Virus record (IMG/VR): IMGVR_UViG_3300009788_001732 | Span: 9,963-73,962 of that record | Strand: one strand, 5' to 3' | Source of the DNA: a virus | Lineage: Duplodnaviria > Heunggongvirae > Uroviricota > Caudoviricetes | DNA length: 64,000 bases | Position numbers and translations under genes: made by a program | Part shown: positions 7,237 through 27,688 of the stretch, piece by piece | Layout: each line of letters starts with the position of its first letter | Position numbering within the stretch: the stretch's first letter is position 1 | The notes under the pieces: model-generated | Seen by the model: the letters and a program-made list of their open reading frames with translations, nothing else | Told to the model about the DNA's origin: nothing | The model's database searches: none

Positions 7237-7638
7237 TCAATACCTATCAATGGAGTCAAGTAATTCATCCAGGCTTGGTTGATTAAATGGGTCCCCATAC
7301 TTAGGCTTCCAATAATCAAACCAGTTTGGTTGTCGAAACAATCGTTTAACTTGCTCGTGTGTTCCCGCAGTCATAATCCAGATACCAATATTGTGTCGAT
7401 GCCACCTGGGCCACTTATCACGTTGTGCAGCCGTGTATTCATACTTGCCTTCGACTTTAACATCAACCCAACGTTGGCCATACTGTGAATGCCCCAAGTA
7501 CAAATCAGGGAACCCTTTCATGTACTTGTTGCCGTGCGTAACCTCAACTAACCAACCTAGGCCCTCAAGAAGAGGTCGAATCTCCCTGTCTCGAATTCTA
7601 GTTTCTTCTGAATTGCGGCTATATCTCTTGGCCATCAT
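7237..7638 (-). CDS. VRR-NUC domain nuclease
   Basis: GFPDLYL ... VDVK arrangement (PD-(D/E)xK, VRR-NUC-like). I set the start at MMAKRY, which gives an ATGA overlap with the polymerase stop; the track ORF start of 7719 lies inside the polymerase gene. Confidence 0.55.
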   Translation of the reverse strand: MMAKRYSRNSEETRIRDREIRPLLEGLGWLVEVTHGNKYMKGFPDLYLGHSQYGQRWVDVKVEGKYEYTAAQRDKWPRWHRHNIGIWIMTAGTHEQVKRLFRQPNWFDYWKPKYGDPFNQPSLDELLDSIDRY

Positions 7639-10388
7639 CCGGCCATCTCTGGCGGTTGAATCTTCAGAGTTCGGCTGCCACTCTTCTTCTCGGCCCAATT
7701 CTCTTGTTCGAGATTCCACGTCATACCGATGAGTGGTACTTGATCTCTGTAACTGACAACCTCGTTCTCAACAGCCTTACTAATACGCTCGGTCATCTCT
7801 GGTGTATTTACTACCATGATTTCATCATGGATATTAAATGGGGCCACCAATAATTTGTTGACGCCCGAGGGCTGCAAGTCCCAAATTTTACGCTGAACTG
7901 CCTTTGTAATTTGGCCGCCGGGTGATTGAATTTCGTGGTTTGCTGCTGCGCGAACATTGGCGCCCTGTAATCCAAATGCTGCTCCAAACAAAGCGGATGA
8001 GACAGCACCGCCCGCTGTCTGCACACCCTTGTGCATCGACCGCATGACTTTGACTTTCAGATTATTTCCTTGCCAGGCTTTAGGTACGTTGTGTGCCAAG
8101 TCATACAAAGCCTTACACACCATGTTTTCAAGTGCAAAGGATCGTTTAAACCCTAAAAAAGATGTCACTTCGTCTTCTGGATCATTCCAGATGATTTGTT
8201 TTCCATTGATTTGCCGCATGGATTGAAACATGTCAATGATTCTTTTGCGCGCCTTGGGTATGCCGGGAAACATATCGAAGAAGTTTTGCTCGGCAGCCTT
8301 AGCTGTTTCTTCATCGAGACCTTGTTTTCGTCTCAGAGTGGTCCAGTCGCCACCGTATATCAGTGCAAATACACCAGTCTTACCGGAGGTGTACATGTCG
8401 TGGCTTGTACCGTCTGACTCAATCACTTGATCGTAAGTGGCTGGCGGAAACATAGCCATGCCAAACAGCGCGTGAATCTTCTTTCTAAACCAGCCTTTGC
8501 CACCGCAGAGGCGACATTCTCGGAGGCCGTTTGGATTGCCATCCGCGCTAGTCTGACAATACATGCAGTTGAATTTGCCGACCCCACCAGTGCCGCCGCA
8601 TTTTTCGCATTCTTTACCGTGTAAACAATCCTTGCAATCTACTTTGTTGGTGAGCGCATTAAATAGGTCTTTGTCTTTGTATACAGCAGCAGCTAGCACA
8701 ACCTCGAATGAGTCAAAGTCGCCCCCGCTCAAGACCATTCCGTCCCATTTCAAAGGGAACATCGCTCGGACAGATTTATCGTGCTTAATCCCCTGTGCAT
8801 TAAGTCCCGATCCGCCAGACATTCGTGTCGAGAGTGTTCCTATAACATTGAAATCAGGATGAAACTTCTTGGCATAGAGAAGTTTTTGGTAGAGTTCGAC
8901 CTCTTTGGCGGCTGTTTTGATATCTAAGATTTGTCGTGCTCGTTGAGCGGCGGGGTGATTTCCGACTTTGATACCACCAGACTCATCGAATTCAGTCTTT
9001 CCAGAAGCGTCAATGCGGCCTTTTCCGTCACAGCGGAGGCACTTTGTATCGTGCGCATTGCCTGTTCCACTGCACCGAGTACATTCCGTATTGTGTTCTT
9101 CTTCCGTAAAACAATCTTTTGAGATATCCTGCAATACAGCCTTCTTGGTGGATTGTTCCAATACCAATGCTTCCATTTCGTCCATGCACTCAGTTATATA
9201 CGCACGAACTTCAGAAGGTCTGTTGATGTTGATTGGAGACGCCTGTAATTTGTGCCATGCATCAGCATACAATTTTTGTATACCAGTTTCATTGATCTCA
9301 AAACCATGCCAGCGCACTGCACCAACCATGCAAGCTAGTTCGCTGTCATCATCGCCGGGTTCCGGATTGTCAAAGTAACGACACAGCGCACGAGTGTACA
9401 CAATATCATCGTAAGCGTACTCTTGCGCATTTTCATTTGTATACCAATGGTCGATGTGATGTTCCAACCAATATGGCCACGCATTGCCGCGGGCCTTTTT
9501 CTTCTTATCGTAGATTGTCCAAGAATCATCAGCTCCGCTAGGTGCCATACCAAGGGCCGTAGGAATAAAACCTAGCCGCTTGTCGGGTGGGGATTTTCTC
9601 CGATCTACTTCAACATCTTTAAAATGATACTTTGGCTGCCAACCCAATGCATATTCGGCTAAGTATTTCAAACCGCCGGCTGGATTGAATCGCAAACAAA
9701 CATCCTTGAAATAAGCGTCCATATTGCCATCGTTATCTATTCGATCAAATACTTTCCACCGTGGACCATACGGGTCTTTCGACTTCGCAAAACAAATGCC
9801 GGGGAATTCAATACGCTGCTCCAATTCACGGGCTAGCGCATATGCCAAAACAGTGGGCACACGACGAATACGGATGTCACTTCGGGACATGGCGGTCTGA
9901 AATTTGCCCTTGCGCGACCACAGCATGAGATCACACGCCCGCTTCGGTTTAATGCATGGTCCATCTTGGCCAGCGTATTCATATTTAACTGCAATCTCTT
10001 CGATATGCTCCTCGGGAATCCAATCCGATGGAAGCAACTTCCAGATTGTGTAAATCTTCGCCACATGAAAATGATCAAAGGAAAGATTGAACCCGATGTA
10101 ATCGAGTTCCATCAACATTTCAAAGAGTTCGAGCGTCTTCCAGACAGGCTCTTTCCAGATGTGGTACAAGTAAATTGGGCCATCATCAATAGCAAATTGC
10201 CATAGCACCATGATGCTGTGTAAACCACAGGTCTCAGAGTCGATGAAAACTGCTTTACCAGCATCCACTTGTCGACGAATCTCATACAGATTCAAACCGA
10301 CCTTAATCTGGTCGATCACTTTCGCGCGATTGAAGGACTCGCGCGTAAAGACGGGAGCCTCTGATTGTATTTGATCAGTATCAAACAT
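7635..10388 (-). CDS. family A DNA polymerase with 3'-5' exonuclease domain and Cys-rich insertions
   Basis: Exo I FIDSETCGL; motif A GGDFDSFEVV (D.S..E); O-helix/motif B KTGVFALIYGG; motif C NIHDEIMVV. Two insertions carry CxxCxGxG repeats (see findings). Confidence 0.9.
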   Translation of the reverse strand: MFDTDQIQSEAPVFTRESFNRAKVIDQIKVGLNLYEIRRQVDAGKAVFIDSETCGLHSIMVLWQFAIDDGPIYLYHIWKEPVWKTLELFEMLMELDYIGFNLSFDHFHVAKIYTIWKLLPSDWIPEEHIEEIAVKYEYAGQDGPCIKPKRACDLMLWSRKGKFQTAMSRSDIRIRRVPTVLAYALARELEQRIEFPGICFAKSKDPYGPRWKVFDRIDNDGNMDAYFKDVCLRFNPAGGLKYLAEYALGWQPKYHFKDVEVDRRKSPPDKRLGFIPTALGMAPSGADDSWTIYDKKKKARGNAWPYWLEHHIDHWYTNENAQEYAYDDIVYTRALCRYFDNPEPGDDDSELACMVGAVRWHGFEINETGIQKLYADAWHKLQASPININRPSEVRAYITECMDEMEALVLEQSTKKAVLQDISKDCFTEEEHNTECTRCSGTGNAHDTKCLRCDGKGRIDASGKTEFDESGGIKVGNHPAAQRARQILDIKTAAKEVELYQKLLYAKKFHPDFNVIGTLSTRMSGGSGLNAQGIKHDKSVRAMFPLKWDGMVLSGGDFDSFEVVLAAAVYKDKDLFNALTNKVDCKDCLHGKECEKCGGTGGVGKFNCMYCQTSADGNPNGLRECRLCGGKGWFRKKIHALFGMAMFPPATYDQVIESDGTSHDMYTSGKTGVFALIYGGDWTTLRRKQGLDEETAKAAEQNFFDMFPGIPKARKRIIDMFQSMRQINGKQIIWNDPEDEVTSFLGFKRSFALENMVCKALYDLAHNVPKAWQGNNLKVKVMRSMHKGVQTAGGAVSSALFGAAFGLQGANVRAAANHEIQSPGGQITKAVQRKIWDLQPSGVNKLLVAPFNIHDEIMVVNTPEMTERISKAVENEVVSYRDQVPLIGMTWNLEQENWAEKKSGSRTLKIQPPEMAG

Positions 10389-13871: not shown

Positions 13872-16800
13872 TTAGTCATTTAGTCCGGATAACACGCCCA
13901 GCGTCAGTAGTTCAAGTTTCCGATTTTGTCGAAGCACTTTATGAACGTTCTCGTCGCTTGGGAGATGATAAATATCGACGATTTTACAACCTTTGTTCTC
14001 GTCCATTCCCTTACGATGAATTCTGTCTTCAGCCTGTGATCTCGACTCTGGATTGAAGTCATTACTCCAAAACACTGCCATGCGTGCTTCAGTCAGATTA
14101 AGACTCAATCCGCCTGATTGTGGATGAGCCACAAACGCCACCTGTTGATGATGCTCTAAATCTGCCCAATAGTGTAGAGGTTTGTCAGTCCTAATTGATT
14201 TTCCAGTATTATCAAATACTTGCCAACCACGGCCGTCGCACTGAACCACGGCCCAACCTTCCTTTTTACAGATTTGTCGAATACGATCATTGCTTCCTTG
14301 GAAGCCAGAGAAAATTACAATCCTGCCTGTTTCTTCACACTGTGCCAACCGTGCCTTTAGTTTGGCCTCCTTCGGGCACGGGGCTTCACGTGCGATCCGC
14401 TTGTACTTGGTGGTTTGACGAGTCCCTTTACATCTCGGACACGCTATGTATTTCTCTTCCAGAATATCAACGTACTCTTGGTCAAGCATGTCAATGGCTT
14501 GAATTGGGTCACTGGGCGCAGCAGGATCAAACCATGCTTTAACTTCTCCCGGCCGCTCTGAACCTGCGCAGGTTGGACAATTTCTAAGGCCATCATGTAT
14601 ATCTTTGTATATGAATCCGTCACTAAGCTCACGGAGCCATGTGATGCCTGTCATTACATTCGGAGCGCCCTTAGCAATTGTTTTTGCAACCCTAAGCATC
14701 GAAGGTGAGGGTTCACATATGTCAATCTCGTATACTTTGTCAGGCAAATCAAGAACATCCCGCTTGTGGATAACTGTAACTAAACCCGCGAGACGTTCGT
14801 ACATGTAGGACACTTCATCACTAGACCTTTCAAAGTCATGCACGGCTTTGTCAGGGTCGTCGATGTCCCACGCATGTGCGCCTTCATCTTTCAACTTAGC
14901 ACATTTCATGCACTTGTCCGGATTGTCTTTCCAGCCAATGCGTACATTGATAACGTTGTCGGGAAGTTCTTGCCGAACCATAAAACCTAAACGGGTTTCT
15001 AATTGATCCTTTGAACCCTCTTTCAGATAGCCCGGCCATGCAATTTCACACTGTTTCCACCAATCCAAGGGAGATTTTGGACTTGGGGTACCGGACATCA
15101 GAATCACGTAGCCATTATCAGTACCATACGTAATCCGAATCAAGTCTGCCAAATCTTGCGCGGCTTTGGATCGCTTTGCAGTCGGAGACTTCAGCTTTGA
15201 CGATTCATCAAAGATCACACCGGCTGGTACAGGATCAGAATCCAATCGCATCTCCATGAATTTGACCAGGCGTTCATACGTGGTTAAATAAATATTGTGT
15301 TCATTTGCATGGACAGTCTCGACGAGCGTATTCCCATCTTTGGGCTTGATCCATGAGAGCGGAAGTTTCCACTTTTCCCACTCTCGTTCAATATTTTCAA
15401 GCGATTTCAGCGGGCCAACCCAGAACCATTGGTCACAACCAGAACGTTCCATGACGGCTTGTGCTGCCATAGTATTATGCGTGACAATAAACTCATCTGT
15501 CACATAACAATGAGAATCAGAATTTACTCTTATACAAATACATTCCTCAAAGCCAATAGATTCAACTGATACAATGGCTCGGGTCGGTTGATACTTTGTT
15601 GGTGTCGTGTAAAGATTAGCTTTTCGAGACAAGAGGAAGGGTTTTGTACGGCTCCAAAATGATCCATTTATTCTATGGCTTGGTTGACCTATTCTTGACT
15701 CACCTTTATAAGTATAAATTGGTTTCTCTTTAAGACCCCGCGAACATGTACCACCAAATGATTGGATGAGAAACACCATTGCTGAGGCGAGTTTGTCTGA
15801 TGCTGAAGAAAATTCAATCCCACAAGTATTTAATGGCGTACCATCTGAATCTAATAACCCCTGCATCAAACATAAACGATTATCAACTGTATTGAAGAGA
15901 AATTCATTAGGGACAAATTTAGTAGCGGCTCTACATTCTTTTAGACCGTATGAATCAATAGCAGCACGAGTCCGAGGGCATCGAATTATATAAGCAATGT
16001 TTTCACCTTTCTTTGTTTGAGATGTAGGAACCAGGGGTGTGTCCATAAAGAAATTCAAACGGTCTATTGTCTCCTGATCAGGTACAGCCACACTATATGC
16101 GGGCAAATGCCCATTGCCCAGAATATACCCCATAACATATGGATGACATTCTAAGGCTTGCTTATCAAAATCAACCGGTTCCACCATTGGTATGAACCAT
16201 TTATTGTTGCCATTCCTATGCTGAAGACCCTTTGCTACAAGCTCTTGTAACTTGAAGACTTTATAACCTTGTCCCCGCCATTTACGCAGTGGTGTAATTA
16301 CTCGCCAAAGATGTTCTCCATCACATTCTGTAGATGACCTATCCGTAAAAGTAACTTTGAATATTTCTCTGCGCCCCTGTGGATGCAAACTCAAAACTTT
16401 GCACTCACCACCTTCTGGATCAACAAGACGTGATCCAACTTTCAAAGCACCCATAGTTGTCCAACCAGAGGGCGTAAGAACCGGCGTGGTTAATTGTGCG
16501 GCTTTCCCAACGCCCATTTCGGCACCCCAGATTTGATAATGATAAGTCAAACCTGTGTCAGCCATTAACTTTTGATGGTCCATCAGTGGCAAATGATCAG
16601 AATATTCACGTTGAATCAATTCCCGATCGAACCATTCGTAGGGGTCGGCGCCCATCAGATATTTCAACTGAAACCAGTTGCGCTGGCAGTTATCAACCGT
16701 CCAGACCTTTCGTGGCTGCTCACGATCGTAGCCATGCCACTTGGCGCCCGTCATCGCTTTGATTTCATTTTTGAGATGAAAGGGTGATTTCTTGAATTCA

Positions 16801-16913
16801 ATCTCTGTCGGGCTTACAACTAACGTGACCGGGTTTCTAATCCGCAGTCCGCCCTTTGTCTCTGTGTAGAGAACAGTTTCAAGAATCTTCTTTTGGGTCA
16901 TACCCATAATCAA
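13872..16913 (-). CDS. SNF2-family helicase (precursor containing an intein)
   Basis: Walker A GAEMGVGK|...|TMAAQA is split by a 343-aa insertion. Downstream are DESS (motif II), zinc-ribbon-like CxxC pairs and the helicase C-domain motifs QSGGLSLNLT and SQAEDRIHRKG. Confidence 0.85.
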   Translation of the reverse strand: MIMGMTQKKILETVLYTETKGGLRIRNPVTLVVSPTEIEFKKSPFHLKNEIKAMTGAKWHGYDREQPRKVWTVDNCQRNWFQLKYLMGADPYEWFDRELIQREYSDHLPLMDHQKLMADTGLTYHYQIWGAEMGVGKAAQLTTPVLTPSGWTTMGALKVGSRLVDPEGGECKVLSLHPQGRREIFKVTFTDRSSTECDGEHLWRVITPLRKWRGQGYKVFKLQELVAKGLQHRNGNNKWFIPMVEPVDFDKQALECHPYVMGYILGNGHLPAYSVAVPDQETIDRLNFFMDTPLVPTSQTKKGENIAYIIRCPRTRAAIDSYGLKECRAATKFVPNEFLFNTVDNRLCLMQGLLDSDGTPLNTCGIEFSSASDKLASAMVFLIQSFGGTCSRGLKEKPIYTYKGESRIGQPSHRINGSFWSRTKPFLLSRKANLYTTPTKYQPTRAIVSVESIGFEECICIRVNSDSHCYVTDEFIVTHNTMAAQAVMERSGCDQWFWVGPLKSLENIEREWEKWKLPLSWIKPKDGNTLVETVHANEHNIYLTTYERLVKFMEMRLDSDPVPAGVIFDESSKLKSPTAKRSKAAQDLADLIRITYGTDNGYVILMSGTPSPKSPLDWWKQCEIAWPGYLKEGSKDQLETRLGFMVRQELPDNVINVRIGWKDNPDKCMKCAKLKDEGAHAWDIDDPDKAVHDFERSSDEVSYMYERLAGLVTVIHKRDVLDLPDKVYEIDICEPSPSMLRVAKTIAKGAPNVMTGITWLRELSDGFIYKDIHDGLRNCPTCAGSERPGEVKAWFDPAAPSDPIQAIDMLDQEYVDILEEKYIACPRCKGTRQTTKYKRIAREAPCPKEAKLKARLAQCEETGRIVIFSGFQGSNDRIRQICKKEGWAVVQCDGRGWQVFDNTGKSIRTDKPLHYWADLEHHQQVAFVAHPQSGGLSLNLTEARMAVFWSNDFNPESRSQAEDRIHRKGMDENKGCKIVDIYHLPSDENVHKVLRQNRKLELLTLGVLSGLND
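15474..16502 (-). mobile_element. intein with LAGLIDADG homing endonuclease domain inserted in the helicase P-loop
   Basis: The intein begins AAQLTTPVLTPSG (block A-like, Ala1) right after GVGK. It carries the LAGLIDADG-like motifs VMGYILGNGH and LMQGLLDSDGT and ends IVTHN, followed by Thr+1; removing it restores GxGKT. I verified the nucleotide codons at both junctions. Confidence 0.8.
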
Positions 16914-20373: not shown

Positions 20374-20392
20374 GTTGTTGCCCTATGCAAAG

Positions 20393-20464
20393 CTGTGCAG
20401 GAAGGATTTGAACCTTCATCGTAGCGGTTAACAGCCGCCCGTCTTACCATTAGACCGCCGCACA
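20393..20464 (-). tRNA. tRNA-Asn (anticodon GTT)
   Basis: Manual cloverleaf: acceptor tgtgcgg/ctgcaca (one G-U), D-arm gtct-aatggta-agac, anticodon arm ggcgg-ctGTTaa-ccgct, T-arm gaagg-ttcaaat-ccttc, 72 nt, no encoded CCA. Confidence 0.65.
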
Positions 20465-20948
20465 TCAAATAGGCTCTTGTTTTCTGTACTCATACCAATT
20501 ACTGCGTTTACGATTCAAGTTACATAATGCCTCGTCACGCTGTCTCTCAGTATTGTAGCGCCGATACACGCACCAATCAACGCAAACCCACGTTTGTCGA
20601 CCACAGTAACGGAACTCAATGGCAAATAGCTTTTTCTTAGATTTCTTCCTCCGCGGACGTTCTCGTTCCTCAATCTGAGGTCCTTTATCGCGGAGAGCTT
20701 CCCAATCATTCCGACTCATGTTTCTGGCACGCCCTTTCGGCTGGACCACGCTTACTATGCCGACTGATGATTGACTCGCCGCCAGCTATATTAACTGCAT
20801 AGTATCTAGTCCCCATCCCTGGGAGTTTTCCAACACTTTCGACTATCTTATAAAGACCACAGCGTGACCTCCAAGTGCGTCGTTTTGCACAAGGTGTTTC
20901 ATCTTTCTGTGCCCTCATCCAATCGAGCTTCTGCTTTGTCTTGGACAT
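20465..20948 (-). CDS. two overlapping small ORFs; possible degenerate homing-endonuclease-like gene
   Basis: ORFs 20706..20948 and 20465..20749 overlap in different frames. The first has CGLYKIVESVGKLPGMGTRYYAVNIAGGE, which is loosely GIY-YIG-like. The pair lies between tRNA genes. Confidence 0.25.
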
Positions 20949-21018
20949 CTTGAAGTACCCTACAGCAGTTTCGATCCGCTTTCTCCGGGATGAAAGCCCG
21001 ACGACATAGCCATTAGTC
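20947..21018 (-). tRNA. tRNA-Glu (anticodon TTC), candidate
   Basis: Manual fold: acceptor gccctac/gtagggt (G-U closing), anticodon arm tcggg-ctTTCat-cccgg, T-stem agcgg/ctgct (one G-U) with an atypical T-loop atcgaaa, D-stem only 3 bp. Confidence 0.45.
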
Positions 21019-21046
21019 CAGTAGGGCTGAAGCTAGCGGAGGGACT

Positions 21047-21119
21047 TGAACCCACAACCTGCTGATTACAAATCAGCCGCTCTGCCAATTGAGCTACGCT
21101 AGCTTATATGGCGATTGGT
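21047..21119 (-). tRNA. tRNA-Thr (anticodon TGT)
   Basis: Manual fold: acceptor gctagcg/cgctagc, D-arm gctc-aattggca-gagc, anticodon arm gctga-ttTGTaa-tcagc, T-arm with one T-T mismatch, 73 nt. Confidence 0.65.
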
Positions 21120-24550: not shown

Positions 24551-24894
24551 AATATAGTATAACCAGAATAACCCGCTTTTGGCGAAAATTTGCGCGGGGA
24601 AGGAGGGTTGGAGGGTCAATTAAGGACAGAAGGAGCGCGCCCTAAAGAAAATGTGTACCTAGGTTTATGAATAAAAGGGTCGATCAATGGTCTGTTAGTA
24701 TATAATGATTGATCCTAAAGAAAAGTCGTATTCAAATTTAAGTAGTACAGTAAAGTAAGCTTGTCGGATTTTGGAAAGATTTGACATAACTTTTACCGCA
24801 TGCAGAACTTAAGGGAGGGTCGATACAAAATATCCGACCCTTGTTTGACCCTTGGCTTGCCAACCATGGTAAGTTATACTATGATCAGGAGCCG

Positions 24895-27688
24895 TGGAGA
24901 TCATATGAGTAAGACCGTACGAACTGTCATTGCCGATTTCTTATCGGCCGCCTCAGAGGGTCGATTACCCTGCGACCCACTTAAGCCAGATGGTCAGAAG
25001 GTACCGGCCGTCAATAATCCAGACACTCTGGACTTGTACAATCCTAACATGGAGGTTCAGGTCTATGTATCATCGACCGGCGCAGAGCCAATTGAAGGTC
25101 GTCGCAACACGTGGACCAAAAATGGTCAAACATTCTGGCACATTCGTGTTCCAAAGAATGCAATGAGTGATCCACAGTGGCAAGATTATCCATTGAAGTT
25201 CTCGCTCACGCATCACGCTGAAGCAATAGGTATGACGGGGTGGGACTGGGCAAACAAATGCTCACGCTGGGTTGCATTCGATTTTGATGCTATCACCGGC
25301 CACGCACCGGGCGTCGGCATCACAGACGAAAAGCTTCAGCAAGTGCGCGACGCCGCTATGAGCATCCCGTGGGTTCAGACCCGCAAGTCTACGCGGGGCG
25401 GCGGCATACATTTGTATGTGTTTTTCAATCCAGATGAATCTATTACAACTGAGAACCACATAGTACATCAGGGTCTCGCTCGTTGCGTTTTGAGTAAGAT
25501 GAGCCAAGAGGCAGGCTTCAATTTCGCCGCCGCTATAGATTCTTGCGGCGGTAATATCTGGGTGTGGCATCGAGACGCAACAGCCGCCAACGAGGGCTTC
25601 AGTTTGTTACGTGAGGCTACAGCAACTCTCGGACTGAGTGACTTCCCATCAAATTGGCGCGATCACATCGAAGTGGTGACCCGCAAACGAACCAAGATTA
25701 AGGTCCGTGGGATTCCTGATTCCGAGGACGAAGACTTTAATGTCATGGCCAGCGCTCGAAACATTATTCCGCTGGACGAGACACATAAAGATATTATCGA
25801 TTTACTAGGTGAAGAGGGATGCACCACAGTATGGGTGGCTGAGTACAATCTATTACAAACTCACACAACTGGGTTTGCTAAACTTAAAGAAGAACGCCCT
25901 GACAAGTATGTGGGCTTCTTTGAGACCAATTCTGATGGCACTCAACCTGCTGAACCAAATTGCTTTGCATTTCCGATGCCAGATGGTGGTTTCAAAGTGT
26001 TTCGCTTCGGTAAGGGTCACCGCGAACATTCATCGTGGTCTCAGGATGGGCAAGGCTACACGTCGTGCTACTTTAATTGTCGACCCAACCTCGAATCTGC
26101 TGCGCTGTCTATGGGTGCCGCTGAGGTTGCCACAGGCTATCAATTTGAAACATTACGCCACGCCGCAAAGGCCGCCAAGGCACTTGGTGCCGATCTGTCA
26201 CAGGTTGACGCCTGGATGGATGAAGGTCGTGAGACTGAGTTGCAATGTGTAAAACAAACGGGTCGTCTCAAGATCAGAATCGAAAAGCGCCCTAATGATC
26301 GCAAACCTGGACTCGGCTGGTCAGAGACTCGGAAATATTGGGAGAAGATTTTCAAGGTCGAGTGCGAACCGCGTGAGATGAAAAACGCCGAATATCCGGA
26401 ATTTGATAACATGTTTCGGGCAATGGTAACACCGGGCGGCGAACAGGCTGGTTGGGCTATGTGGGATGTGTCTCAGAAAGATTGGGACACCGGCCCAGCA
26501 AATCACGTCAAGTTGATTTTACAAGCGGATGGTTATACCAAAAGTGAAGCTGAGCAAGTGATGGGCGCCGTGCTAAAGAAGCGGTGGCGACTTGTTAATA
26601 TGCCCTTCATGCCTGAGTTCCCAGGTAATCGTCAGTGGAATTATAAGTCTCCGCAGTATCGATACACGCCTGCAAGTTTGACAGACGATGAGTGTCCAAA
26701 GCATCCATACTGGGATATGATTTTGGATCATGTATTTGCTGATCTCGACGAGGCACTGGCTGAGAATATATGGGCTATTCGGTTTGGTATCAAGACCGGC
26801 CGTCAGTATGGCCAATTGTGGATTGCCTCGATGCTCCGTGAGCCGTTTGAACCTCTGCCCTACCTATTCCTTCATGGACCACAAAACAGCGGTAAGTCGA
26901 TCCTACACGAAGCAATTGCCAAACTCATCACAGGGGGCATTTGTCGAGCCGACAAGGCCCTTACATCGACAGGGGAGCATAATGGTGAATTGGCCAATGC
27001 TGTCTTGGCTGTGGTTGAAGAAACCAACTTGAATGGACGCGGCGGAGAACGAGCCCTGAATCGTATGAAGGATTGGGTGACTGCTGAGTTTATTCAAATT
27101 CGACGAATGCGGACAGATTCATACTTGCAGCAAAACACACTCAAGTTCATCCAATGTTCAAATGAACGAAATCACTGTTTGATTATGCGCGGCGACACCA
27201 GGATCACGATGCTGTATGTGGCTGAAATTGATTTGGATGATGAGATTCCAAAGACCATGTTGAAAAAGGCTCTCGAAGGTGAGTCATCCCACTTTATGCG
27301 AACTCTTTTAGACCTTGAGATTCCGCCGCCACGGGGTCGGTTGCGCATTCCTGTGATTGCTACACGGGACAAAGAAAACCTAGAAGTTGAAAATATGAAT
27401 TGGCTACTTCGCTTTATCAGTGAACGTACTTTTGAAATAAAGGGCGCAAAGATTCCTTATAAGGAATTCTATATTCGTTTCCAGGATATCTTGCCTGAGG
27501 AAGATAAGAGTTATTGGACCCACAAACAAGTCAAGATTTTCTTACCACGACAACATCCCTCGGGCCGTGCCGGCGGCGCTGGAGAAACGTTTATTGCAAA
27601 CATGGCTTGGGACCCAAATACAAAAAGCGACGGAGTTGAACTCATATTAAGAGAAGGGCGGCTCAAACCTAAGCCTGATGTTGATTAG
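24895..27688 (+). CDS. DNA primase-polymerase (AEP) fused to SF3/D5-like helicase
   Basis: AFDFDAITGH and STRGGGIHLYVF (AEP catalytic motifs); C-terminal Walker A FLHGPQNSGKS. GGAG SD lies upstream of ATG 24895; the track ORF start at 24800 is probably spurious. Confidence 0.85.

What the first reader, a model, noticed from the sequence alone, without database searches (positions are those of the whole stretch)
8493..9083. DnaJ-type CxxCxGxG zinc-finger repeats inserted into the family A DNA polymerase
The polymerase has two Cys-rich insertions. One is at aa 436-457 (CTRCSGTG...CLRCDGKG), between the exo and pol domains. The other is at aa 585-632 (CKDC...CEKCGGTG...CMYC...CRLCGGKG), between motif A and motif B in the fingers region. 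The CxxCxGxG spacing is that of the DnaJ cysteine-rich zinc centre, which I do not expect in a PolA. The insertions could mediate protein-protein contacts (with the primase-helicase or the host) or stabilise the fingers.
Basis: seen in the sequence. Interest (0 to 1): 0.55.

Follow-up and report, generated by a model that had tools for sequence, protein, structure and literature searches.

The report
Zinc-knuckle modules grafted into phage polymerase
A phage DNA polymerase carries two small cysteine-rich, probably zinc-binding, add-ons on its moving "thumb" and "fingers"; the thumb add-on resembles one already noted in some marine phages, while the fingers add-on seems undescribed and comes and goes between close relatives.

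Summary
The 917-aa family A polymerase (window 7635-10388, minus strand) has six CxxC motifs, at aa 436/450 and 585/594/608/625. Four of them are full CxxCxGxG. Shuffling gives 0.5 by chance.

Both clusters are true insertions. Insertion 1 is not an exo-pol linker. It sits at the thumb tip, between helix H2 and helix I. Insertion 2 falls between E. coli Pol I E729 and G730, just after motif A and a few residues before the dNTP-binding His.

The polymerase belongs to a large clade known only from metagenomes. Its relatives lie mostly in Planctomycetota MAGs and chromosomes.

- **Insertion 1:** present in 116 of 118 close homologues.
- **Insertion 2:** occurs in forms with about 8, 4 or 0 Cys. 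One pair of polymerases 86% identical differs by a clean 54-aa indel, with the same neighbouring genes. The module is therefore accessory.

Similarity to the DnaJ cysteine-rich domain is real at motif level only. Pfam gives 16 bits against a cutoff of 32.7, and the fold matches are non-significant.

There is a published precedent. HMO-2011-type marine phages have a "partial DnaJ domain" with two CXXCXGXG motifs in their polymerase, but in a different thumb loop of an unrelated PolA.

Verdict: a new variant of a known kind. Function is inferred, not shown.

The parts
7635..10388 (-). Family A DNA polymerase gene (917 aa) with an N-terminal 3'-5' exonuclease domain
   Evidence: ORF. Pfam DNA_pol_A scores 54 bits against a cutoff of 34.3. 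It matches PHROG 17 'DNA polymerase' at 1.8e-23. The AF2 model has pLDDT 90 and pTM 0.88. Foldseek matches it to Klenow, Bst, G20c and T7 polymerases over about 900 alignment columns.
8958..9122 (-). Insertion 1 (aa 423-477): thumb-tip Cys4 module, C436-x2-C439-SGTG ... C450-x2-C453-DGKG, followed by a beta-hairpin extension. It is predicted to hold one metal site.
   Evidence: Present with two CxxC in most of the 118 close homologues and absent in P0102 and P0105, where the loop is about 10 aa. The model has pLDDT of about 95 here. It lies after STKKAVLQDI (aa 413-422, equivalent to E. coli 608-617) and before HPAAQRAR (aa 478, equivalent to E. coli YPLPKVIL 621-628).
9018..9083 (-).
8481..8645 (-). 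Insertion 2 (aa 582-636): fingers Cys8 module with four CxxC (C585, C594, C608, C625). It is predicted to hold two metal sites. Strands 582-584 and 633-635 are the first and last of the module and could form its stem.
   Evidence: hhalign against E. coli Pol I leaves the whole segment unaligned between ...LLTAFAE729 and G730-KDIH734. It varies among homologues between about 8, 4 and 0 Cys. The model has pLDDT 90-95 here, with DSSP strands as listed. The first ligand C585 alternates with His in several close relatives.
8493..8636 (-).
8703..8732 (-). Motif A (aa 553-562, LSGGDFDSFE; D557 corresponds to E. coli D705)
   Evidence: hhalign. G556, D557 and E562 are invariant.
8472..8480 (-). K637-I638-H639, equivalent to E. 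coli K731-D732-I733-H734. The conserved His follows immediately after insertion 2.
   Evidence: K637 and H639 are invariant. Alignment. The role of H734 in dNTP binding is from my own knowledge of Klenow fragment mutagenesis.
8349..8393 (-). Motif B (aa 666-680, YTSGKTGVFALIYGG). K670, F674 and Y678 are canonical, but Y666 replaces the usual Arg (E. coli R754).
7821..7832 (-). Motif C (aa 853-856, I-H-D-E; D855 and E856 invariant)
10221..10247 (-). Exo I motif (aa 48-56, FIDSETCGL). Further exo motifs are NLSFDHF at aa 101 and YAYDD at aa 324.
   Evidence: D50 and E52 are at least 90% conserved; D105, Y324 and D328 are invariant.
8871..8957 (-). Thumb helix I (aa 478-506), the long helix that descends from the thumb tip immediately after insertion 1
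   Evidence: DSSP helix H479-506. Motif correspondence with E. coli 621-646.

Best explanation
Both Cys clusters are small, autonomously folded, metal-stapled (most likely Zn-Cys4) beta-hairpin modules of the zinc-ribbon / DnaJ-CR knuckle type. They have been grafted into surface loops of the two mobile subdomains of a replicative phage PolA.

Insertion 1 has one predicted metal site. It extends the thumb tip between helices H2 and I. Insertion 2 has two predicted metal sites. It protrudes from the fingers at the loop just after motif A, a few residues before the dNTP-contacting His639.

Neither module is part of the catalytic machinery. They are accessory protrusions that are gained, doubled, halved and deleted within the family.

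The most likely role, which is inferred and not shown, is to give the polymerase rigid extra surfaces. The thumb module would grip the nascent duplex or dock a replisome partner, as a built-in functional analogue of the T7 thioredoxin-binding loop. The fingers module would contact the template strand or the helicase-primase, or would brace the fingers.
For: Shown:
- The Cys pattern is far beyond chance and conserved. There is a Cys-to-His swap at one ligand position, as expected for a metal ligand.
- Both segments are clean insertions relative to E. coli Pol I and to family members that lack them.
- AF2 models both as ordered, beta-rich modules with pLDDT 90-96.
- Insertion 2 occurs in forms with about 8 Cys (79 of 118), 4 Cys (9 of 118) or none (30 of 118). 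An NJ tree needs at least 18 state changes.
- Among 139 representatives of 50%-identity clusters, 62 lack Cys modules at both sites, while others have up to 4 CxxC in the thumb or 6 in the fingers.
- P0102 and P0105 are 86% identical and differ by one clean 54-aa indel of insertion 2. Their large neighbouring replication genes are the same in the same order; only a few small ORFs differ.
- The catalytic motifs are intact.
- The only fold or profile neighbours of the modules are DnaJ-CR-type zinc domains: DNAJA3 zinc finger, BSD2 and Anti-TRAP.

Inferred by analogy:
- Thumb-tip loops are a recurrent site of accessory insertions in replicative PolAs. Examples are the T7 TBD, the phiKMV-like ~100-aa insertion, the POP hairpin (PMC10201439) and the HMO-2011 CXXCXGXG module.
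Against: - No metal, DNA or partner binding was tested.
I could not measure Cys geometry, the zinc pairing, or where the modules point relative to DNA.
- Charge gives no DNA-binding signature. Insertion 1 is neutral to acidic (mean -0.5 in close homologues and -3.3 in the wider family). Insertion 2 is only mildly basic (+1.4).
- Frequent loss of insertion 2 without any visible compensating gene change is equally compatible with a marginal or purely stabilising role.
- The excess of substitutions in the fingers (aa 645-711) that tracks gain and loss of insertion 2 is confounded by the greater divergence of the discordant pairs.
Confidence: 0.55

Rival explanations
1. The modules are purely structural staples. 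The zinc sites only rigidify otherwise floppy loops on the mobile subdomains, in the way the Zn-Cys4 lid works in Gram-positive adenylate kinases or the C+/C- forms of ribosomal proteins. They make no specific contact with DNA or partners and are nearly neutral, which explains their easy loss.
For: - Repeated gain and loss: at least 18 changes, and 62 of 139 representatives lack both modules.
- An 86%-identical pair differs only by the module, with the same large neighbouring genes in the same order.
- There is no consistent charge signature.
Against: - Insertion 1 is kept in 116 of 118 close homologues together with a conserved acidic lead-in and a conserved hairpin extension (IDAS...GGIKVGNHPAA). 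That is more conservation than a neutral staple needs.
- The insertion sites coincide with places where other PolAs carry functional accessory elements.
Confidence: 0.25
2. The Cys clusters bind iron, either as a rubredoxin-like Fe(Cys)4 site or as an Fe-S cluster, or they form reversible disulfides. They would then make polymerase activity sensitive to redox state, as proposed for the CysB Fe-S cluster of eukaryotic B-family polymerases.
For: - Cys4 knuckle pairs cannot be assigned to a particular metal from sequence.
- Some family members have CPxCG-type knuckles typical of rubredoxins.
- The DnaJ CR domain has reported thiol-oxidoreductase activity (PMC8262869, listed).
Against: - The CxxCxGxG spacing, the only profile and fold neighbours (DnaJ CR, Anti-TRAP, BSD2), and a Cys/His swap at one ligand all point to structural zinc.
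- There is no CX2CX2CX3C-type 4Fe-4S signature.
Confidence: 0.1
3. The modules are functional DnaJ fragments. They would recruit the host DnaK chaperone system, or act as a chaperone on replication proteins, as papers on HMO-2011-type phages hint by citing the DnaJ dependence of lambda replication.
For: - The HMO-2011 literature names the element a 'partial DnaJ central domain'.
- PF00684 is the best Pfam hit to insertion 1.
Against: - There is no J domain, G/F region or DnaJ C-terminal domain. DnaK stimulation needs the J domain (established knowledge).
- The window protein scores 16.3 bits against a cutoff of 32.7, and the excised insertion 2 gives no PF00684 hit.
- Even the HMO-2011 module is below the cutoff, at 29.0 bits.
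- The similarity is confined to an 8-residue metal-knuckle motif.
Confidence: 0.05

Closest known systems
HMO-2011-type phage DNA polymerase (SAR116 phage HMO-2011; roseophages CRP-1, -2, -3) with a 'partial DnaJ central domain'
   Same: Both are phage family A polymerases with an exo domain. Both carry two CXXCXGXG motifs in an insertion that lies in sequence between the exo motifs and the polymerase catalytic motifs (PMC6918029, PMC9038755). The HMO-2011 module is likewise sub-threshold for PF00684, at 29.0 bits. BLASTP between the two polymerases aligns essentially only the Cys modules. No function has been tested in either.
   Different: - The polymerase bodies are not detectably related by BLAST.
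- The HMO-2011 module lies between NLNSPEQL (helix H1) and STSKTNLELL (H2). The window's module lies after H2 and before helix I, which is a different thumb loop.
- HMO-2011 has no insertion 2; its loop reads VSTGFDVH.
- HMO-2011 is a 55-kb podovirus. The window encodes a 1250-aa tape measure protein, and the contig carrying this polymerase reaches 104 kb.
DnaJ/Hsp40 cysteine-rich (CR) zinc domain (Pfam PF00684) and its stand-alone relatives Anti-TRAP and BSD2
   Same: - CxxCxGxG knuckles are present: four of the six CxxC in the window.
- Insertion 2 has four CxxC in about 45 residues, and its first and last strands lie at the two ends of the module.
- The only fold and profile neighbours belong to this family.
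- One homologue, P0072, passes the Pfam cutoff at 34.0 bits.
   Different: - The window scores 16.3 bits against a cutoff of 32.7, and only through insertion 1.
- Two of the four repeats of insertion 2 lack GxG.
- The repeat spacings (9, 14 and 17 residues) differ from those of E. coli DnaJ.
- There is no J-protein context.
- The nested zinc topology is not established.
Thioredoxin-binding domain (TBD) of T7 gp5 and other thumb-tip insertions (phiKMV-like PolA, plant organellar POPs)
   Same: All are accessory insertions at the thumb tip of a replicative PolA, and they are lineage-specific (PMC10201439). This is the basis for the processivity or docking inference.
   Different: - The T7 TBD lies between helix H and H1, before NPSSRDHIQ. 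It has no Cys knuckles and needs host thioredoxin.
- The window module is self-contained, metal-stapled, and lies two loops further on.
Lineage-variable structural zinc ribbons (Zn lid of Gram-positive adenylate kinase; C+/C- ribosomal proteins)
   Same: These are Cys4 knuckle modules that are present or absent among close orthologues without loss of the core function. This comparison is from my own knowledge.
   Different: They occur in different proteins. Here two separate hot-spot loops in one enzyme each vary between zero and several knuckle pairs.

Membership tests
Family A DNA polymerase (Pol I-like, with 3'-5' exo) | Pfam PF00476 above the gathering score | tested here: met
   54 bits against a cutoff of 34.3.
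Family A DNA polymerase (Pol I-like, with 3'-5' exo) | Catalytic motifs A (D), B (RxxxKxxxFxxxYG) and C (HDE) | tested here: met
   D557, K670/F674/Y678-G and H854-D855-E856 align to E. coli D705, K758/F762/Y766 and H881-D882-E883. One exception: the motif B Arg (R754) is an invariant Tyr (Y666).
Family A DNA polymerase (Pol I-like, with 3'-5' exo) | Klenow-like fold, including the exonuclease domain | tested here: met
   The AF2 model (pLDDT 90) matches Klenow, Bst, G20c and T7 structures with Foldseek E of 1e-11 to 1e-13 over about 900 columns. Exo motif residues D50/E52, D105 and Y324/D328 are conserved.
DnaJ cysteine-rich domain (PF00684) | Profile match above the Pfam gathering score | tested here: not met
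   The window protein scores 16.3 bits against 32.7. Excised insertion 1 scores 21.9 bits, and excised insertion 2 gives no hit. Homologues score 17-34 bits, and only P0072 passes.
DnaJ cysteine-rich domain (PF00684) | Four CxxCxGxG repeats | tested here: inconclusive
   Insertion 2 has four CxxC, but only repeats 2 and 4 keep GxG. Insertion 1 has two full repeats only.
DnaJ cysteine-rich domain (PF00684) | Two zinc centres in nested topology (repeats 1+4 and 2+3) | not testable with these tools
   Model coordinates are not exposed. The 4-Cys variants keep repeats 1 and 4 in three lineages, but this fits tandem as well as nested pairing. BLASTP to HMO-2011 aligns repeats 2 and 4.
DnaJ cysteine-rich domain (PF00684) | Fold similarity to solved CR domains | tested here: inconclusive
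DnaJ cysteine-rich domain (PF00684) | Occurs within a J-protein (J domain, G/F region, C-terminal domains) | tested here: not met
   No such Pfam hits in the 917-aa protein.
HMO-2011-type DNA polymerase | Two CXXCXGXG motifs in an insertion between the exo motifs and the polymerase catalytic motifs | tested here: met
   Insertion 1: C436-TRC-SGTG and C450-LRC-DGKG. The criterion is as used in PMC9038755.
HMO-2011-type DNA polymerase | Sequence homology to HMO-2011 DNAP (the paper's criterion: at least 25% identity over at least 80% of the length) | tested here: not met
   No HMO-2011 record is among the 15 best of 44 tblastn hits at E up to 1, and none of the organism names in the summary is a marine HMO-2011-type phage. 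BLASTP aligns essentially only the Cys modules. hhalign gives 90% probability over 242 columns, driven by the Cys motifs.
HMO-2011-type DNA polymerase | Same insertion site | tested here: not met
   HMO-2011 aa 294-326 lie between H1 (aa 240) and H2 (aa 354). Window aa 436-457 lie after H2 (aa 413-422) and before helix I (aa 478).
T7-type thioredoxin-binding domain | Insertion between thumb helices H and H1 | tested here: not met
   The T7 insert precedes NPSSRDHIQ. The window's equivalent motif, NINRPSEV (aa 387), lies about 35 residues before insertion 1.

The most novel reading that the evidence does not exclude
This uncultured PolA clade, apparently of Planctomycetota phages and prophages, may have evolved a modular, self-contained 'zinc clamp' system. 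Knuckle hairpins are repeatedly inserted, duplicated and deleted at two hot-spot loops on the thumb and fingers. They would tune processivity or coupling to the helicase-primase without any host factor. This would be convergent with the HMO-2011 thumb module and functionally parallel to the T7 thioredoxin solution. The fingers module next to the dNTP-binding His, together with the family-wide Arg-to-Tyr change in motif B, could mean a remodelled nucleotide-entry site.
Probability: 0.2. Interest if true: 0.65.

Novelty: new variant of a known kind. Interest (0 to 1): 0.45.

Why it matters
Thumb and fingers insertions are how replicative family A polymerases acquire processivity and replisome contacts. 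Examples are the T7 thioredoxin-binding domain and the accessory-interacting determinant of Pol gamma.

A compact module of 30-55 aa that is metal-stapled and naturally removable at defined loops would be useful in three ways:
- as a new natural solution to that problem;
- as a ready-made graft site and module for engineering polymerases;
- as a lineage marker for a large, uncultured group of phages linked to Planctomycetota, a phylum for which phage biology is almost unknown.

It also corrects how the published 'partial DnaJ domain between exo and pol domains' of HMO-2011-type phages should be read. That element is a thumb-tip insertion, not an interdomain linker. If the modules turn out to be neutral staples, the finding is a modest evolutionary curiosity.

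Tried and rejected
- **tblastn against 50,697 phage records.** No match at 1e-5. At E up to 1 there are only short, weak hits around motif B (Erwinia, Klebsiella and crAss-like phages). There is therefore no cultured close relative to borrow annotation from.
- **phmmer and profile search against PDB sequences**. Only the C-terminal motifs align, and the thumb is not covered. I mapped insertion 1 by pairwise alignment of homologues lacking insertion 1 to E. coli Pol I. A global hhalign of the thumb region failed.
- **hhalign against T7 gp5.** Only 4.5% probability, so it was not used for mapping. The T7 landmarks were read from the sequence.
- **Model coordinates.** They are not exposed, so the zinc pairing is unresolved.
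- **Nested DnaJ topology from the 4-Cys variants.** I first read these variants as proof of nested topology. I withdrew that reading, because deletion of the two middle repeats fits tandem pairing equally well, and BLASTP to HMO-2011 pairs repeats 2 and 4.
- **Charge analysis for a DNA-binding signature.** None was found.
- **Search for sites co-varying with the presence of insertion 2.** Hits cluster in the fingers (aa 645-711), but the control pairs were less diverged, so the result is not conclusive.
- **Search for a partner gene that co-occurs with insertion 2.** I used one sister pair. The large genes and their order are the same and only small ORFs differ, so no candidate emerged.
- **Intein or homing-element remnant.** Rejected, because the modules are 30-55 aa and have no intein motifs.
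- **Literature.** The 2023 PolA reclassification (PMC10201439) never mentions zinc or cysteine. No paper in the library describes a Cys module in PolA fingers.
Full report
**1. Observation.**

The finding lies inside one ORF, window 7635-10388 on the minus strand, which encodes 917 aa. The protein has 22 Cys. Twelve of them form six CxxC motifs, at aa 436, 450, 585, 594, 608 and 625.

Four of the six are full CxxCxGxG: C436, C450, C594 and C625. No other ORF in the window has that motif.

In 20,000 shuffles of the protein the mean was 0.5 CxxC, and none reached six. The identical protein is found in JGI, Logan and ENA assemblies.

**2. What the protein is.**

Pfam DNA_pol_A scores 54 bits against a cutoff of 34.3. 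PHROG 17 'DNA polymerase' matches at 1.8e-23.

An AlphaFold2 model built on 95 homologues has mean pLDDT 90 and pTM 0.88. Foldseek matches it to Klenow, Bst, phage G20c and T7 polymerases over about 900 columns.

The exonuclease motif residues are conserved: D50/E52, D105 and Y324/D328. So are polymerase motifs A (D557), B (K670, F674, Y678) and C (D855, E856). One oddity is that the motif B Arg (E. coli R754) is an invariant Tyr (Y666) in the whole family.

**3. Where the insertions are.**

*Insertion 2.* hhalign of the family profile against E. coli Pol I (probability 98%) leaves aa 582-636 entirely unaligned. The gap falls between ...LLTAFAE729 and G730-KDIH734. Insertion 2 is therefore a clean insertion in the loop that follows motif A. 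It ends directly before the conserved K637-I-H639. The equivalent His in Klenow (H734) and T7 (H506) contacts the incoming dNTP; that point is from my own knowledge.

*Insertion 1.* Profile methods did not cover the thumb. I therefore aligned family members that naturally lack insertion 1 to E. coli Pol I and read the conserved landmarks.

| Landmark | Window | E. coli Pol I |
|---|---|---|
| Helix H1 | NINRPSEV (aa 387) | NLSSTKQL (579) |
| Helix H2 | STKKAVLQDI (aa 413-422) | STSEEVLEEL (608-617) |
| Start of helix I | HPAAQRAR..IL (aa 478) | YPLPKVIL (621) |

The model's DSSP agrees: H367-382, H391-399, H416-422, then a beta-rich stretch, then a 28-residue helix at 479-506.

Insertion 1 (aa 423-477) is therefore inside the thumb, at its tip, between H2 and helix I. 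It is not a linker between the exo and pol domains.

**4. Distribution in relatives.**

The polymerase has 1,135 homologues at E up to 0.001 in the 90%-identity-clustered protein collection. All are metagenomic or from MAGs. The 50%-identity library holds 462 clusters at E up to 1e-30. There is no cultured phage relative: tblastn finds nothing at 1e-5 and only weak motif B hits at E up to 1.

In a scan of GTDB species genomes, 24 loci encode a relative. Most are in Planctomycetota MAGs (Thermoguttaceae, Pirellulales, Planctomycetaceae). They include three copies in one 4.2-Mb chromosome and one in a 6.9-Mb chromosome, which I take to be prophages.

The window itself is phage-like. It encodes a 1250-aa tape measure protein, ParB-like and exonuclease proteins, helicase/primase-like proteins, a dCMP deaminase and three tRNAs.

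Among 118 full-length homologues with at least 51% identity:
- Insertion 1 is present in 116. P0102 and P0105 have a short loop of about 10 residues instead.
- Insertion 2 has about 8 Cys in 79, 4 Cys in 9, and is absent in 30. Where it is absent, the loop reads ...LRKALLAGKKIH....
- A neighbour-joining tree needs at least 18 state changes for insertion 2.

In the window's own subclade, seven Cys of insertion 2 are invariant. The first ligand alternates between Cys and His.

Among 139 more distant cluster representatives, 62 lack Cys modules at both sites. Others have up to four CxxC in the thumb or six in the fingers. Two flavours of insertion 2 occur: Gly-rich CxxCxGxG hairpins, and plain zinc ribbons of the form TCExC...CPxCG.

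Some prophage copies have a doubled thumb module and no insertion 2.

Across 255 sequences, insertion 2 rarely occurs without insertion 1 (12 sequences, against 114 with both). This count is not controlled for phylogeny.

The sharpest case is P0102 against P0105. They are 86% identical over 781 residues, and the only large difference is a clean 54-aa indel of insertion 2. Their large neighbouring genes within ±10 kb are the same in the same order: DUF5906 primase-helicase, ParB, SNF2 helicase, exonuclease, ligases and others. Only a few small ORFs differ.

Insertion 2 is therefore dispensable for the enzyme, and it is not tied to an extra neighbouring gene.

**5. Is it 'DnaJ-type'?**

At motif level, yes. 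At family level the case is not established.

- PF00684 scores 16.3 bits against a cutoff of 32.7 on the whole protein, through insertion 1 only.
- Excised insertion 1 scores 21.9 bits. Excised insertion 2 gives no PF00684 hit.
- Homologues score 17-34 bits, and one (P0072) passes.
- Foldseek gives four hits: DNAJA3 zinc finger, BSD2 and two Anti-TRAP structures. The best E is 0.54.
- Every one of these neighbours is a DnaJ-CR-type zinc protein, but none is significant.
- There is no J domain.

The 4-Cys variants keep repeats 1 and 4, which fits either nested or tandem pairing. BLASTP to HMO-2011 aligns repeats 2 and 4.

**6. Precedent.**

Two papers describe an 'atypical' polymerase in HMO-2011-type marine phages (SAR116 phage HMO-2011; roseophages CRP-1, -2, -3). 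[quoted passage not shown] No function was tested.

I fetched that gene (L029:8284-10326, 680 aa). Four points follow:
- Its module scores 29.0 bits on PF00684, also below the cutoff.
- By BLASTP to E. coli Pol I (E 1e-28), its module (aa 294-326) lies between H1 (NLNSPEQL, aa 240) and H2 (STSKTNLELL, aa 354). It too is a thumb-tip insertion, but one loop earlier than in the window protein.
- The T7 thioredoxin-binding domain is one loop earlier still, before NPSSRDHIQ.
- HMO-2011 has no insertion 2. The two polymerase bodies share essentially no BLAST-detectable similarity outside the Cys modules.

The 2023 reclassification of PolAs lists thumb-tip insertions in T7-like, phiKMV-like and POP polymerases. 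It never mentions zinc or cysteine. I found no description of a Cys module in PolA fingers.

**7. How it most likely works.**

*Shown.* The two segments are conserved, ordered, Cys-knuckle insertions on the thumb tip and on the fingers next to the dNTP-binding His. The catalytic motifs are intact. The fingers module is accessory and evolutionarily labile.

*Inferred.* The Cys bind structural zinc: one site in insertion 1 and two in insertion 2. The modules act as rigid protrusions. By analogy with other thumb-tip insertions, the thumb module probably supports processivity or docks a replisome partner. The fingers module probably contacts the template or the helicase-primase, or braces the fingers.

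*Against a simple DNA-clamp reading.* Insertion 1 is neutral to acidic, and insertion 2 is only mildly basic.

*Rivals.* The alternatives are neutral or purely stabilising staples, an iron or redox site, and true DnaJ-like chaperone recruitment. The last is unlikely without a J domain.

**8. Verdict.**

The finding is a new variant of a known kind. A CXXCXGXG module in a phage PolA is already known from HMO-2011-type phages. Three things appear to be undescribed:
- its occurrence in an unrelated, uncultured clade linked to Planctomycetota, at a different thumb loop;
- a second module with eight Cys in the fingers;
- the family-wide pattern of modular gain, doubling and loss at two hot-spot loops.

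Interest is moderate (0.45). The feature is structurally intriguing and useful as an engineering lead and a lineage marker, but there is no functional evidence yet.

Noticed in passing
window 8382-8393 (aa 666-669 of the polymerase): In motif B, the Arg that contacts the dNTP gamma-phosphate in E. coli Pol I (R754) and T7 (R518) is replaced by a Tyr. The Tyr is invariant in all 95 aligned family members, so the motif reads YxxxKxxxFxxxYG. This is unusual for a PolA.
   Followed up: partly
window 20392-21104 (-): Three tRNA genes lie in a cluster: Asn-GTT, Glu-TTC and Thr-TGT.
   Followed up: no
L013, L018, L019 (Thermoguttaceae and Planctomycetaceae MAG contigs); P0130, P0140: Some family members carry a doubled Cys module (four CxxC) at the thumb-tip site. 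L013, L018, L019 and P0140 have no fingers module; P0130 has a two-CxxC one.
   Followed up: partly
L012, L016, L023 (all on OY762224.2, a 4.2-Mb Thermoguttaceae chromosome): A single bacterial chromosome carries three separate copies of this polymerase family, presumably three prophages. Only one of the copies has insertion 2.
   Followed up: no
P0082: A 56%-identical homologue is labelled 'POLAc domain-containing protein [Durusdinium trenchii]', a dinoflagellate. It is probably phage or bacterial DNA in a eukaryote assembly.
   Followed up: no
P0058, P0063, P0081, P0089: The precomputed Pfam family PF27659 is attached to four homologues. All four are 4-Cys variants of insertion 2. That family is not in the local Pfam copy, so I could not see what it describes.
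   Followed up: no
window 9084-9101 (aa 430-435) and the equivalent positions in homologues: An acidic run (TEEEHN in the window; VEEDEE or similar elsewhere) precedes the first CxxC of the thumb module in most family members. It could be a docking element for a basic partner.
   Followed up: no
window 13872-16913 (-) and 24800-27688 (+): There are two large replication proteins. One is 1013 aa and combines helicase, primase and P-loop matches. The other is 962 aa with primase matches. They are candidate partners of the polymerase. The genes from 24.8 to 30.1 kb are on the opposite strand, and the GC skew flips there.
   Followed up: no
L029:8284-10326 (HMO-2011 DNA polymerase): The published 'partial DnaJ domain between exo and pol domains' of HMO-2011 maps to the thumb-tip loop between helices H1 and H2. 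It is about 85 aa longer than the equivalent E. coli loop (595-607). It is therefore a thumb insertion rather than an interdomain element.
   Followed up: yes
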